Assembly: GCF_963921235.1 (NCBI RefSeq)
Contig: NC_086097.1
Coordinates: forward strand, 115,694,001 to 115,758,000
Length of the DNA stretch: 64,000 nt
Reading direction: 5' to 3'
DNA from: Mobula hypostoma
Lineage: Eukaryota
In this document: positions 7,436 to 60,668 of the stretch, in pieces
How the letters are laid out: every line of letters begins with the position of its first letter
Position numbering within the stretch: the first letter of the stretch is position 1
The notes under the pieces: model-generated
The model's database searches: none
What the model saw: the letters and a program-made list of their open reading frames with translations, nothing else
What the model was told of the DNA's origin: nothing
Program-made: the position numbers and the translations under genes

Positions 7436-9163
7436 TCGTTACTAATTGAATTGTGAGGTACTGTCATCTACCAAACAGCATCACAGTATAAGTGAGCATG
7501 GTCAGAAAATTATGTCAATTGAGAAGAAAGGGAAAGACACGCTAAGAAAGGGATAAATTAATTAAACTTCTTTACTTATATGAAATGCTGGTGGAAAGAT
7601 AATTTGCACACTTCCAGAAAGTTCATGGCATATCTTTTATTCCTTCTCCCAAAGGCAAAGAAGCTAAGAATAAAATTTTCTGCCTTTGAACGCTTTTCCA
7701 GTGATTTTTTTTTCCTACTGCATTTACCCCTAAGCTGTCATCCTTCTCTACCCTTTTCTTTTCATGGTATGTCCCTGTGGAGAGAACGTACATTGGACTA
7801 GATTTGGAGGTTTAAATATCACATAATTGGTGGGTGAGGAGAAAATAAATGTCCACCTCAAGTGGGAACACTGCAGAAAACAACCTTTAAGAAATACAAA
7901 TTTTCCATTGAAACCTCTATTAATACTGATCTATGTGTAAGCTGGGAATAGATTGGTTAAACTTTCAGATCAAAAATGATGCCGGCAAATTCCAGTCTTG
8001 TAGGGTTGTTTGTCTGACAAACAATGAGATGATTGACAGTCAAACAGTTGAACAAATAGCTCAGCTTATGAATGTGGCAAATTAGTTGTGAATACATTGA
8101 AACCAATTGGAAAGGCAGTGAGAAATCGTTTCTTTTTATTGAAACCACACAGTGATATGACCACAAAAACAAAACCAACACAATGCAGCTTTGCAGGGAT
8201 AATCCCATAATATCAGTTGCTTCTGAGTCCAAACAACAGCAGAGGCCAAACCTATGCCATGGATGCTCTTTGAGGGTGAGAGAGGTGGGCTTTGGATTGC
8301 TAGGAGCTGGCCTACAACAACGCATGAAAATGTGTATAAAAATAGTCAGTTTTTGGTAATTATAGAAATCTGTCTGCTTGTTCCTTTTCCAAAGGGACAC
8401 AGAAGGCAATTGAAAATAGTCTATCTTGTGAGCAAAAATATACCTTTATTATTTTTCTCCATTTCATTTCTACATCATTCAGGATTCCAGGTTTACAGCT
8501 GTATATAATGGGTATTCTTCTCCTCATGTTTCTATGGCCTGTAGCTTTGGAACAGTGAGAACATACAGCAGTACAATATGTATATCTTCTATGATAATAC
8601 CATAGATGCAATAGTTATTCTTTGCAGTACACGGCTCTAACATGAGGCAAAAATTACGGGTCACTGGAGGTAAAATAAAAGCTGAAGATTAAATCATCAC
8701 TAATTTTGATTATTCCCACAATATACTGTAGGCTTTATTCAATTAATGTTCTGTATATTTTTGCATATCCCTTTGTAATCTAAATTCTTGCCCATGTCTT
8801 TTACTTCTGTTGCTATTCATTGACAATTGTGACTCAGCTGATAGCATTCTTGACTTTGGGCAAGAAGGTGATGGGCTCATGAACTCCTCCACGCACTAGA
8901 GCTCAAACATGTAGATGGACTTTCCTGTGATATATTGAATAAGTGCTGCTCAGCTGAAGTTTTATCTACTCTCTCAGGGGAGAGTAGAGATTTCTATGTG
9001 GTGACTATCATTTTTCAATCACAAAAATGGTGATTGTACTCTACTCTATCTGTCTTTAAGATACTGGTGAAGATGGTGAACACAAGGACTCACAGAATCA
9101 TGCAACACACATCAAAGTTGCTGGTGAATGCAGCAGGCCAGGCAGCATCTCTAGGAAGAGGTA

Positions 9164-9201
9164 CAGTCGACATTTCAGGCCGAGACCCTTCATCAGGACT
9201 A
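9164..9201 (-). ncRNA. Minimal type-I hammerhead ribozyme motif (PLE-associated)
   Basis: Minus strand tagtc CTGATGA agg gtctcgg cct GAAA tg TC gactg; stem I tagtc/gactg, stem II agg/cct. Confidence 0.75.
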
Positions 9202-9920
9202 ACTGAAGGAAGAGTGAGTAAGAGATTTGAAAGCTGGAGGGGGAGATCCAAAATGATAGGAGAAGACAGGAGGGGGTGGGATGGAGTCAACAGCTGGACA
9301 GGTGATTGGCAAAGGGGATACGAGAGGATCATGGGACAGGAGGTCCGGGAAGAAAGACAAGTGGGGGGGGGGAACCCAGAGGATGTACAAGGGGTATATT
9401 CAGAGGGACAGAGGGAGAAAAAGGAGAGTGAGAGAAAGAATGTGTGTATAAAAATAAGTAACAGATGGGGTACGAGGGGGAGGTGGGGCGTTAGCGGAAG
9501 TTAGAGAAGTCGATGTTCATGCCATCACGTTGGAGGCTACCCAGACGGAATATAAGGTGTTGTTCCTCCAACCTGAGCGTGGCTTCATCTTTACAGTAGA
9601 GGAGGCCGTGGATAGACATACCAGAATGGGAATGGGATGTGGAATTAAAATGTGTGGCCACTGGGAGATCCTGCTTTCTCTGGCGGACAGAGCGTAGGTG
9701 TTCAGCAAAGCGGTCTCCCAGTCTGCGTCAGGTCTCTCCAATATATAAAAGGCCACATCGGGAGCACCGGACGCAGTATATCACCCCAGTCGACTCACAG
9801 GTGAAGTGTTGCCTCACCTGGAAGGACTGTTTGGGGCCCTGAATGGTGGTAAGGGAGGAAGTGTAAGGGCATGTGTAGCACTTGTTCCACTTACACGGTT
9901 GTCTTTTATATATTGGCGAG

Positions 9921-10207
9921 ACTGCGTCTGGTGCTCCCGATGTGGCCTTTTATATATTGGCGAGACCCGACGCAGACTGGGAGACCGCTTTGCTGAACAC
10001 CTACGCTCTGTCCACCAGAGAAAGCAGGATCTCCCAGTGGCCACACATTTTAATTCCACATCCCATTCCCATTCTGACATGTCTATCCACTGCCTCCTCT
10101 ACTGTAAAGATGAAGCCACACTCAGGTTGGAGGAACAACACCTTACATTTCGTCTGGGTAGCCACCAACCTGATGGCATGAACATCGACTTCTCTAACTT
10201 CCGCTAA
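9921..10207 (+). pseudogene. PLE GIY-YIG endonuclease C-terminal coding fragment (no RT, no true start)
   Basis: CVWCSRCGLLYIGETRRRLGDRFAEH...HFN...EQHL...LGSHQPDGMN; the mirror copy on the minus strand (~9491-9890) has a CGA>TGA stop. Confidence 0.9.
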
Positions 10208-10500
10208 TGCCCCACCTCCCCCTCGTACCCCATCTGTTACTTATTTTTATACACACATTCTTTCTCTCACTCTCCTTTTTCTCCCTCTGTCCCTCTGAAT
10301 ATACCTCTTGCCCATCCTCTGGGTCACCCCCCCCCCGTCTTTCTTCCTGGACCTCCTGTCCCATGATCCTCTCGTATCCGCTTTTGCCTATCACCTGTCC
10401 AGCTCTTGGCTCCATCCCTCCCCCTCCTGTCGTCTCCTATCATTTTGGATCTCCCCCTCCCCCTCCAACTTTCAAATCCCTTACTCACTCTTCCTTCAGT

Positions 10501-10538
10501 TAGTCCTGACGAAGGGTCTCGGCCTGAAATGTCGACTG
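10501..10538 (+). ncRNA. Minimal type-I hammerhead ribozyme motif (PLE-associated)
   Basis: tagtc CTGACGA agg gtctcgg cct GAAA tg TC^gactg; predicted cleavage after C10533. Confidence 0.75.
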
Positions 10539-10659
10539 TACCTCTTCCTAGAGATGCTGCCTGGCCTGCTGCGTTCACCAGCAACTTTGATGTGTGTTGC
10601 TTGAATTTCCAGCATCTGCAGAATTCCTGTTGTTTGCGTTTTTAAACTCACAGAATTAT

Positions 10660-57265: not shown

Positions 57266-57766
57266 AATTTATACTCCAGTAAACTTCTTTTCAGAAGATT
57301 ACAACTCGCAATTAACCAATCCTATCCTATATTACTACTGAAGTTTGCTAGACTCGTAAACTTCTCTGCAATTCTGTAAGCTTTTATCCCATCATATATA
57401 AAATACCGAGCTGTGCCTAAAACCTGTTCCATGCAATTTTCCTCCAATCTCCCTATTCATGTATTCTATGACTTGATTAGCAAAGTAAAGCATTCCCTTT
57501 GACCTTTAGTCAGTTTATAGATCTGTCCTGTGTCCTCACTATGAACTGGACTCTGACAACTTGCACTCGTTCCAAAATCACACTTTATTTACTTGTGCAC
57601 TAAGAGAACGGCAAGGCCTCTGTCACCACTCTGTTTTGAAGTTTGAGAAAACAAATGACATTTTTAGACAGAAAATGGCTAATTGTATACAAATATCGAT
57701 CCAACCAACACACATCAAAGTTGCTGGTGAATGCAGCAGGCCAAGCAGCATCTATAGGAAGAGGCG

Positions 57767-57804
57767 CAGTCGACGTTTCAGGCCGAGACCCTTCGTCAGG
57801 ACTA
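57767..57804 (-). ncRNA. Minimal type-I hammerhead ribozyme, intact consensus
   Basis: Exact reverse complement of 57913-57950. Confidence 0.85.
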
Positions 57805-57912
57805 ACTGAAGGAAGAGTGAGTAAGGGATTTGAAAGCTGGAGGGGGAGGAGGAGATCAAAATCTCCTCCTCCCCCTCCAGCTTTCAAATCCCTTACTCAC
57901 TCTTCCTTCAGT

Positions 57913-57950
57913 TAGTCCTGACGAAGGGTCTCGGCCTGAAACGTCGACTG
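57913..57950 (+). ncRNA. Minimal type-I hammerhead ribozyme, intact consensus
   Basis: tagtc CTGACGA(57918-24) agg gtctcgg cct GAAA(57938-41) CG TC^ gactg; palindromic ACGT stands in for stem III. Confidence 0.85.
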
Positions 57951-58071
57951 CGCCTCTTCCTATAGATGCTGCTTGGCCTGCTGCGTTCACCAGCAACTTT
58001 GATGTGTGTTGCTTGAATTTCCAGCATCTGCAGAATTCCTGTTGTTTGCAAATATCGATCCAATAGTTTTG

Positions 58072-58275: not shown

Positions 58276-58717
58276 TTATCTTTCATTCATTCAGTAGAAA
58301 CTTTGTGCACTTCAGAATTCCATCATTTGCACACTTAAATTCCAATCAATACATGTACAGAGTGGATTCCAGTTAATTGGACCATTAGTTAATCAGGGCA
58401 GCCACTTAGTTTGGACAACTGTGAACAAAAACTAATCCAGAAAATATCTGGAATTCCCTTCATTTATCTGGGAAACTATACCCCTTATTTGGGACACGAG
58501 ACTGTTGCTGTATAGCTTCTAGCTAGTATCTGCCACATCTATTTGTGTGGCCGTTAGACACTACACCATGCTTCGAGCAAAGAGTCTATAGAACTGAGGC
58601 AAAATGTTAGTGAGGTCATGGACAATACTGTCTGCAAGGAAACAAATCTCAAGGTTGTATAATGTATAAATACCTGGATAATAAATGTACTTTGAACTTT
58701 GATGTACACTTGCATTA

Positions 58718-58995
58718 CACTCAGTGGTTACTTTATTAGGTACACTTGCCCGTTAATGCAAATATCTAATCAGCCAATCAGGCGACAGCAACTCAATGCA
58801 TAAAAAGCATGTAGACATGGTCAAGAGGTTCAGAACAAACATCAGAATGGGGAAGGAATGTGAGCTAAGTGACTTTGACTGTGGAATGGCTGTTGGTGCC
58901 AGACAGGGTAGTTTGAGTATCTCAGAAACTGCTGATCTCCCTGGATTTTCACACATTACAGTCTCCGGAGTTTACAGAGACCACTGAAAATAAAA
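58718..58995 (+). mobile_element. Tc1 left half, part of a local duplication
   Basis: TA plus left TIR; MGKECELSDFDCGMAVGARQGSLSISETADLPGFS (Tc1 HTH-like); near-identical to 60140-60420. Confidence 0.85.
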
Positions 58996-59147: not shown

Positions 59148-60071
59148 TAGAACATAAAACATAGAATAGTACAGCACAGTACAGGCCCTTCAGCCCACAA
59201 TGTTGTGCCGACCCTCAAACCCTGCCTCCCATATAACCCTCCACCTTAAATTCCTCCATATACATGGGTCTAGTAGTCTCTTAAATTTCACTAGTGTATC
59301 TGCCTCCACCACTGACTCAGGCAGTGTATTCCATGCACCAACCACTCTCTGAGTAAAAAACCTTCCTCTAATATCCCCCTTGAACTTCCCACCACTTACC
59401 TTAAAGCCATGTCCTCTTGTATTGAGCAGTGGTGCCCTGGGGAAGGGGCACTGGCTATCCACTCTATCTACTCCTCTTATTATCCTGTAAACCCCTATCA
59501 CGTCTTGTCTCATCCCCCTTCTCTCCAAAGAGTAAAGCCCTAGTTCCCTTAATCTCTGATCATAATGCATACTCTCTAAACCAGGCAGCATCCTGGTAAA
59601 TCTCCTCTGTACCCTTTCCAATGCTTCCACATCCTTCCTATAGTGAGGCGACCAGAACTGGACACAATACTCCAAGTGTGGCCTAACCAGAATTTTATAG
59701 AACTGCATCATTACATCACGACTCTTAAACTCTATCCCTTGACTTATGAAAGCTAACACCCCGTAAGCTTTCTTAACTACCCTATCCACCTGTGAGGCAA
59801 CTTTCAGGGATCTGTGGACATGTACCCCCAGATCCCTCTGCTCCTCCACACTACCAAGTATCCTGCCATTTACTTTGTACTCTGCCTTGGAGTTTGTCCT
59901 TCCAAAGTGTACCACCTCACACTTTTCCGGGTTGAACTCCATCTACCACTTCTCAGCCCACTTCTTCATCTTATCAATGTCTCTATGGAATCTTTGACAA
60001 TCCTCTACACTATCTACAACACCACCAACCTTTGTGTCGTCTGCAAACTTGCCAACCCACCCTTCTACCCT
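59148..60071 (-). mobile_element. 5'-truncated CR1
   Basis: ORFs 59943..60137 (KFADDTK) and 59190..59942 (MEFNPEKC...RPHLEYCVQFWSP...RTRGH-like). Confidence 0.95.
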
Positions 60072-60139
60072 TATACATTTATAATGTATAAATACCTGGA
60101 TTATAAATGTACTTTGAACTTTGATGTACACTTCCATTA

Positions 60140-60668
60140 CACTCAGTGGCTACTTTATTAGGTACACTTGCCCGTTAATGCAAATATCTAATCAGCCAAT
60201 CAGGCGACAGCAACTCAATGCATAAAATGCATGTAGACACGGTCAAGAGGTTCAGAACAAACATCAGAATGGGGAAGGAATGTGAGCTAAGTGACTTTGA
60301 CTGTGGAATGGCTGTTGGTGCCAGACAGGGTAGTTTGAGTATCTCAGAAACTGCTGATCTCCCTGGATTTTCACACATTACAGTCTCTGGAGTTTACAGA
60401 GACCACCAAAAATAAAATTTTAAAAAATCCAGTGAGCGGCAGTTCTGTGGACAAAAGTGCCTTTTTAATGAGAGAGTCAGTGGAGAATGATCACACTGGT
60501 TCAAGTTGGCAGGAAGGAGACAGTAACTCAATCATCCATTACAACAGTTGTGTGCAGCAGAGCATCCCTGAATGCACAAGGTATTGACCTGTGAAGTGGA
60601 TGAGCTACAGCAGCAGAAGGCCACATCGGGTACCACTCCTGTACCAAATAAATTGGGGCCGCTGAGTG
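60140..60668 (+). mobile_element. Non-autonomous Tc1/mariner element
   Basis: Both TIRs present; transposase N-terminal remnant ORF 60218..60415. Confidence 0.85.

What the first reader, a model, noticed from the sequence alone, without database searches (positions are those of the whole stretch)
57690..58063. 343-bp non-coding palindromic retro-insertion with an intact hammerhead ribozyme on each strand
Seen: 151-bp inverted arms (1 mismatch) around a 4-nt spacer, a 37-nt one-sided extension and a perfect 15-bp TSD. Each arm holds a complete minimal hammerhead (CTGACGA, 3-bp stem II, GAAA, GTC site, stem I agtc/gact) with palindromic ACGT in place of stem III. Established: PLEs encode such minimal type-I hammerheads, thought to act as dimers, and can form inverted terminal repeats. 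Inference: this is a ribozyme-only, retrozyme-like miniature made by PLE machinery. A transcript from either strand carries one ribozyme plus its antisense, so it would either self-cleave or fold into a ~150-bp dsRNA that masks the ribozyme and could feed siRNA or ADAR pathways.
Basis: partly seen in the sequence, partly recalled or inferred. Interest (0 to 1): 0.8.

Follow-up and report, generated by a model that had tools for sequence, protein, structure and literature searches.

The report
Short head-to-head Penelope retroelement insertion
The palindrome is real but ordinary: it is two short end-pieces of a very abundant Penelope-like jumping gene inserted back to back, one of more than a thousand such stubs in this genome, and its two small ribozyme motifs are predicted to be locked shut rather than to drive a separate mini-element family.

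Summary
In detail: 151-bp arms with 1 mismatch, a 37-nt one-sided extension, a 15-bp TSD and a minimal hammerhead on each strand. The insert is 344 bp, not 343. A related organism carries the empty site. The retrozyme reading does not hold. The arms are the last ~190 nt of a high-copy RT + GIY-YIG Penelope-like element (PLE), with 26,387 exact copies of the 42-nt ribozyme core. The genome holds 1,377 similar short palindromes, and the layout runs from 0.2 to 6.2 kb, including a second case in this window. The exact turn is unique. Inverted copy + one-sided 30-40-bp tail + TSD, and opposite-strand minimal hammerheads, are published PLE features; this scan also met them before on other DNA. On either strand the ribozyme is transcribed after its antisense, so it is predicted to stay paired. 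Mechanistic side results: 78 of 80 inverted elements have the tail on exactly one arm, and the two arms share haplotype, which favours priming from both target nicks followed by end-joining (inferred). Some other palindromes share one junction at two sites 0.2-3 Mb apart.

The parts
57690..57704 (+). left copy of 15-bp target-site duplication
   Evidence: empty site with a single copy in organism B contig
57706..57862 (-). tail-less arm: inverted copy of the PLE 3' end, about -193 to -35 relative to the element end; includes the central CAAA and the 2-nt AT overlap
57767..57804 (-). minimal type-I hammerhead motif, minus strand (C17 equivalent at 57772)
57861..58048 (+). tail-bearing arm: PLE 3' end, -186 to the element end
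57913..57950 (+). minimal type-I hammerhead motif, plus strand (C17 = 57945; U at 11.1)
58012..58048 (+). 37-nt PLE 'tail' present on one arm only
   Evidence: defined in PMC8557442 and PMC11167929
58049..58063 (+). right copy of 15-bp target-site duplication
9098..10635 (.). second, 1.5-kb head-to-head insertion of the same PLE family in this window, with GIY-YIG fragment, one-sided tail and TSD (comparison case)

Best explanation
This is a heavily 5'-truncated, head-to-head insertion of an abundant endonuclease-bearing Penelope-like retroelement, likely built in one event by reverse transcription from both nicks of a staggered cut followed by end-joining, and its hammerheads are likely passengers predicted to be locked in a 151-bp hairpin. 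Shown: PLE identity of both arms, TSD, empty site, unique junction, tail on one arm, and a rare variant shared by both arms. Inferred steps: (1) the element's GIY-YIG nuclease cuts both strands about 15 nt apart; (2) each 3'-OH primes cDNA on the same (or a sibling) element RNA, one at the tail end (about -1) and one at the inner start site (about -35); (3) both cDNAs stop after 150-190 nt; (4) they are joined through the 2-nt AT microhomology and filled in; (5) any read-through RNA makes the antisense arm first, so the hammerhead pairs as it emerges and does not cleave.
For: Both arms map at 95-98% onto the 3' end of a full-length copy that encodes a 974-aa ORF (RVT_1 E=5e-5, GIY-YIG E=1e-3; DKG, YIDD and CX4CX2C motifs) and is itself a 6.2-kb head-to-head insertion with a 14-bp TSD and one-sided tail. 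Copy number: 26,387 exact 42-nt cores; 1,377 short palindromes turning just upstream of the ribozyme; at least 14 of the first 26 elements on contig C1 are inverted (counted by eye). Exact turn: 1 match. Turns occur all along the element (52, 25, 26, 12, 14 and 23 matches at six anchors), mostly with different junctions. The same breakpoints as here recur in L016 and L068 on another haplotype and other contigs. Tail on exactly one arm in 78 of 80 inverted elements (binomial p=5e-21 against 50%), tail-less end at median -34.5, TSD median 14 bp. Arms of one element differ at 27 of 406 polymorphic-site comparisons (6.7%) against 50% for shuffled pairs. The rare -180 T variant (53 matches genome-wide) is on both arms here. 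In 14 of 23 simple asymmetric elements the shorter arm carries the tail, which plain cDNA fold-back cannot give. In vitro, a PLE protein nicks and extends both strands from two internal start sites that bracket the tail (PMC11167929). Hairpin MFE is about -330 kcal/mol and the hammerhead is paired in every transcript prefix tested; the isolated motif has P<0.001 for the hammerhead fold.
Against: Twin priming is inferred from genome patterns only; PMC3846280 proposes self-priming on an antisense template for the same structures. Shared haplotype could also come from arm-to-arm gene conversion. The 80 elements were picked as inverted loci, not at random. Seven pairs of other palindromes share a junction at nearby sites with unrelated flanks, so not every junction is made afresh. 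Folding calculations ignore protein assistance, which PMC11167929 found necessary for a PLE hammerhead.
Confidence: 0.88

Rival explanations
1. Same PLE origin, but the inverted arm arises by self-priming or fold-back on one strand (cDNA or antisense RNA) rather than by priming from both nicks.
For: Proposed in PMC3846280 (passages). Turns recur at self-complementary words (ATGCAT in 6 of 50 listed, also GATC). Arms share haplotype.
Against: cDNA fold-back cannot put a tail on the shorter, second-made arm when the first lacks it, yet 14 of 23 asymmetric elements and this one look so. Arm asymmetries reach more than 1 kb. Short palindromic words are also natural microhomologies for joining two cDNAs.
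Confidence: 0.2
2. A non-autonomous, retrozyme-like palindromic mini-element that is re-mobilised as a unit through RNA.
For: Intact cores, tail and TSD. Some other palindromes have junction twins with their own TSDs. Cis-acting pLTRs can be mobilised in trans (PMC3846280).
Against: The turn is unique. The length continuum runs to 6.2 kb and no modal mini-element is seen. The layout is not tandem, unlike the retrozyme definition (bioRxiv 10.64898/2026.07.22.740005). In at least two twin pairs both outer arms differ in haplotype while the centre matches (L124/L125, L128/L129), which fits DNA-templated copying better than RNA copying.
Confidence: 0.06
3. The palindrome is kept because it yields dsRNA for siRNA/piRNA or ADAR control.
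For: A read-through transcript would form a 151-bp near-perfect hairpin. PLEs give antisense small RNAs in a rotifer (PMC3846280).
Against: The insertion is young (1 arm mismatch, perfect TSD) and absent from a related organism. It is one of more than a thousand alike, so no locus-specific selection is needed.
Confidence: 0.04
4. The central turn is an assembly artefact.
For: Perfect palindromes are a known assembly risk (noted in PMC8557442 for short reads).
Against: Both outer junctions are in organism A contigs, and the empty site in organism B fits exactly. The arms differ (one mismatch, tail, 7-nt asymmetry). Hundreds of loci show the same rule-bound layout with TSDs.
Confidence: 0.02

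Closest known systems
Inverted-pLTR insertions of EN+ Penelope-like elements (Craig et al. 2021 PMC8557442; Arkhipova et al. 2013 PMC3846280, e.g. Pen2a_Av)
   Same: Inverted 5'-truncated copy joined at the 5' end, 30-40-bp tail at one end only, TSD, microhomology or palindrome at the inverted junction.
   Different: Both copies are truncated to under 200 nt, so no ORF is left. The TSD is longer (median 14 bp here, 8-10 bp in the A. vaga examples read). Copy number is in the tens of thousands.
Minimal type-I hammerheads of metazoan PLEs (Cervera and de la Pena 2014, PMC4209133)
   Same: Core boxes, short stem I, extra base before stem II, palindromic 15.2-16.2. That paper already reports dual min-HHRs 100-700 bp apart on opposite strands in Schistosoma, and no cleavage by a monomer.
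   Different: U at 11.1 instead of the conserved G10.1-C11.1 pair; stem II is short (3-4 bp). Activity not tested here.
Poseidon element of Anolis (Frangieh et al. 2024, PMC11167929)
   Same: Tail = stretch between two RT start sites; both strands cut and extended; the hammerhead is dispensable for insertion in vitro.
   Different: The parent here has the CX2-5CxxC linker (Neptune/Nematis type). That paper does not derive inverted insertions from the two start sites in the parts I read.
Non-LTR retrozymes (bioRxiv 10.64898/2026.07.22.740005)
   Same: Non-coding, about 300-400 nt, PLE-derived type-I hammerhead.
   Different: Retrozymes are tandem direct repeats with at least two same-strand ribozymes and fixed-length monomers. 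This is a single head-to-head pair with a unique junction.

Membership tests
EN+ Penelope-like element insertion | derived from an element encoding telomerase-like RT plus C-terminal GIY-YIG | tested here: met
   arms 95-98% identical to the 3' end of L099, whose 974-aa ORF has RVT_1 and GIY-YIG hits, both below curated cut-offs but with DKG, YIDD and YIG motifs
EN+ Penelope-like element insertion | inverted 5'-truncated copy adjacent at the 5' end | tested here: met
EN+ Penelope-like element insertion | 30-40-bp tail at one end only | tested here: met
   37 nt here; 78 of 80 inverted loci
EN+ Penelope-like element insertion | target-site duplication and empty site | tested here: met
Neptune/Nematis clades | CX2-5CxxC zinc-finger linker between RT and EN | tested here: met
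   motif at residue 841 of the L099 ORF; criterion from PMC8557442
Neptune/Nematis clades | RT phylogeny placing it in Neptune rather than Nematis | not tested
   no tree was built
minimal type-I hammerhead (min-HHR) | CUGANGA, GAAA, NUH, stem I, palindromic stem III substitute | tested here: met
minimal type-I hammerhead (min-HHR) | G10.1-C11.1 pair | tested here: not met
   U precedes GAAA in this subfamily
minimal type-I hammerhead (min-HHR) | self-cleavage as a dimer | not testable with these tools
   needs an in vitro assay
non-LTR retrozyme | tandem direct repeats with at least two same-strand hammerheads | tested here: not met
   one hammerhead per strand, head to head
non-LTR retrozyme | multi-copy family of one unit | tested here: not met
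   exact turn found once; junctions heterogeneous
non-LTR retrozyme | self-cleaved, circular monomer RNA | not testable with these tools
   needs raw RNA reads

The most novel reading that the evidence does not exclude
These palindromes are a genome-wide record of how PLEs insert. One dimeric enzyme primes both target nicks at the two internal start sites of one RNA and the two cDNAs are then joined. In a few percent of cases the join is copied from a neighbouring palindrome within 0.2-3 Mb, so junctions spread locally by DNA-templated repair without any mini-element RNA.
Probability: 0.45. Interest if true: 0.5.

Novelty: already known. Interest (0 to 1): 0.2.

Why it matters
The locus itself matters little: it is a routine insertion product. 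The population matters more. PLE integration is still unresolved, and a genome with thousands of young head-to-head insertions makes models testable: tail on exactly one arm, shared haplotype, and independent arm lengths. Locally shared junctions would add a DNA-templated step that I did not find in my searches. Any dsRNA effect would be a genome-wide load from many copies, not a property of this one.

Tried and rejected
Rfam scan: no hammerhead family hit, only generic hairpin matches. DNA search of the genome with the arm returned nothing because common words are skipped, so patterns were used. Exact left-arm haplotype with the 1-nt deletion: only this locus. No RNA holder listed for the locus; this says nothing about expression. 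The run guessed to be RNA covered only the repeat, not the flanks. Short-read contigs of X1-X3 gave no cover over 57857-57859; a hole proves nothing, so the centre still lacks read-level confirmation. Organism C contigs stop at the site and are uninformative. Segmental duplication as the cause of junction twins was rejected because flanks do not align. The centre-versus-edge mismatch profile of twins was inconclusive: the script stopped after 6 pairs and the centre was selected to be identical. A favoured turn position specific to this finding was not supported, since turns occur at all six anchors tried. Literature: no paper held all of Penelope/shark/ray/Neptune/retrotransposon; searches found no paper stating twin priming or local junction copying for PLEs. 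The library lacks most subscription papers, and I opened no supplements.

Full report
Observation. The anatomy is as described, with small corrections. The arms are 57706-57856 and 57861-58011 with one mismatch at a CpG, the one-sided extension is 58012-58048, and an exact 15-bp repeat flanks a 344-bp insert. A contig from a related organism joins 57689 to 58049, giving the empty site with one copy of the repeat, and both outer junctions are in contigs of the same organism as the window. Each arm holds a minimal hammerhead core with C17 at 57945 on the plus strand. U stands before GAAA, so the G10.1-C11.1 pair is missing. Rfam does not detect the motif.

What it is. The window has a second element with the same ends at 9098-10635: 1.5 kb, head to head, with a GIY-YIG fragment, the extension on one arm and a TSD. 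Searching the 3.48-Gb genome with that fragment led to near-full-length copies. L099 encodes a 974-aa ORF with RT and GIY-YIG hits (below curated cut-offs) and DKG, YIDD and CX4CX2C motifs. It is itself a 6.2-kb head-to-head insertion with a 14-bp TSD. The linker motif points to Neptune or Nematis (PMC8557442, passages); no tree was built. Mapped on L099, the finding's arms are positions -193 to about -35 and -186 to the end. The '4-nt spacer' is part of the longer arm, and the arms overlap by AT.

How common. The 42-nt ribozyme core has 26,387 exact matches. Short palindromes that turn within 150 nt between the two ribozyme-proximal anchors number 1,377. Of the first 26 elements on contig C1, at least 14 are inverted (counted by eye, and two-core elements are hit more often). 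Turns occur at all six anchors tried, from -178 to -619: 52, 25, 26, 12, 14 and 23 loci. The same breakpoints recur in L016 and L068 on a different haplotype and other contigs, as expected for a microhomology site used independently.

How it likely forms. I analysed 80 inverted elements: the finding plus 49 others from the 50 of 52 loci listed, and 30 further inverted loci picked whose two ends lay within the fetched DNA. In 78 of 80 exactly one arm has the tail. The other arm ends at a median of -34.5, nine end further in, TSDs have a median of 14 bp, and lengths run from 198 to 6,219 bp. The two arms of one element differ at 27 of 406 polymorphic-site comparisons, against 50% for shuffled pairs. 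The finding carries a rare variant (53 matches genome-wide) on both arms. So both arms come from one source, or were homogenised afterwards. In 14 of 23 simple asymmetric elements the shorter arm has the tail, which fold-back of a single cDNA cannot produce. PMC11167929 (parts 1-2 of 4 read) shows a PLE protein cutting and extending both strands from two internal start sites that bracket the tail, with a predicted dimer. Together these favour priming from both nicks followed by microhomology joining. This is inference; PMC3846280 (passages) proposes self-priming on an antisense template instead.

The ribozyme. On either strand the antisense arm is transcribed first. In every plus-strand prefix folded, the hammerhead is already paired; the full hairpin is about -330 kcal/mol, and the isolated 38-nt motif has a probability below 0.001 for the hammerhead secondary structure. 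The two motifs are on opposite strands and cannot form the same-transcript dimer. PMC4209133 (parts 1-2 of 4) found no cleavage by a monomeric min-HHR and low cleavage by dimers, and it already notes dual min-HHRs 100-700 bp apart on opposite strands. PMC11167929 found the PLE hammerhead protein-assisted and not needed for insertion in vitro. A dsRNA role is possible if the site is transcribed, but it was not tested.

Against my reading. Some palindromes do share a junction. By eye, 4 pairs among the 150 loci listed in the six genome-wide sets, and 3 pairs among the first 50, lie 0.18-3.2 Mb apart with unrelated flanks. Five of these seven pairs have clear 13-16-bp TSDs at both sites; one has weak ones and one has a truncated arm. 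A random partner would fall within 1.3 Mb with probability below 0.001; the list covers only part of one contig and favours local pairs. The tail sits on the opposite arm in 3 of 6 scorable pairs. In L124/L125 and L128/L129 the outer arms differ in haplotype while the centre matches, which fits DNA-templated copying from a neighbour better than RNA copying of the whole palindrome. Dispersed twins were seen only at simple microhomologies such as ATGCAT. The finding has no twin, so this does not rescue the retrozyme reading, but it is the most interesting lead here.

Comparison and verdict. PMC8557442 (passages) describes the inverted 5'-truncated copy and the one-sided 30-40-bp tail as typical of PLEs, and PMC3846280 gives a worked example with TSD. 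Non-LTR retrozymes are defined as tandem repeats with at least two consecutive hammerhead units (bioRxiv 10.64898/2026.07.22.740005, part 1 of 5 and passages), which is not met. Earlier notes of this scan reached the same reading for similar palindromes in this and other genomes; they are unchecked AI notes, and one calls the organism a stingray, which I did not test. Supplements of the papers were not opened and may hold closer examples. Verdict: a real, young, ordinary PLE insertion product; already known in kind; interest 0.2.

Noticed in passing
L120/L121, L122/L123, L124/L125, L128/L129, L130/L131, L160/L161, L162/L163 (G000 C1, C52, C18, C9): Pairs of head-to-head PLE palindromes 0.18-3.2 Mb apart share the same junction but have unrelated flanks, mostly their own TSDs, and in 3 of 6 the tail on the opposite arm; suggests local DNA-templated copying of the centre.
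   Followed up: partly
window 9098-10635: 1.5-kb head-to-head insertion of the same PLE with GIY-YIG fragment, TSD, and a short duplicated piece at the junction (9898-9922).
   Followed up: yes
L099:906-7124: 6.2-kb near-perfect PLE palindrome (98.7% over 2.9 kb) with long open RT-EN frames on both arms.
   Followed up: partly
L004, L010, L012, L058, L063, L064, L068, L076, L078: 9 of 50 short palindromes have the tail-less arm ending at -59 to -115 with intact TSDs, suggesting extra internal priming sites; not seen among the 30 other inverted loci.
   Followed up: partly
L052, L069, L076, L041, L100: A minority of inverted elements have arms that differ at subfamily-diagnostic sites, hinting at two templates or later conversion.
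   Followed up: partly
window 58658-58957 and 60080-60379: 300-bp direct repeat at 98% identity, 1,422 bp apart, flanking a LINE fragment (ORF 59190-59942).
   Followed up: no
window 5946, 19938, 21461, 30343, 36338, 42880, 44453, 52416: Older, 70-80% identical relatives of the same hammerhead-bearing PLE end, many with C at 11.1.
   Followed up: no
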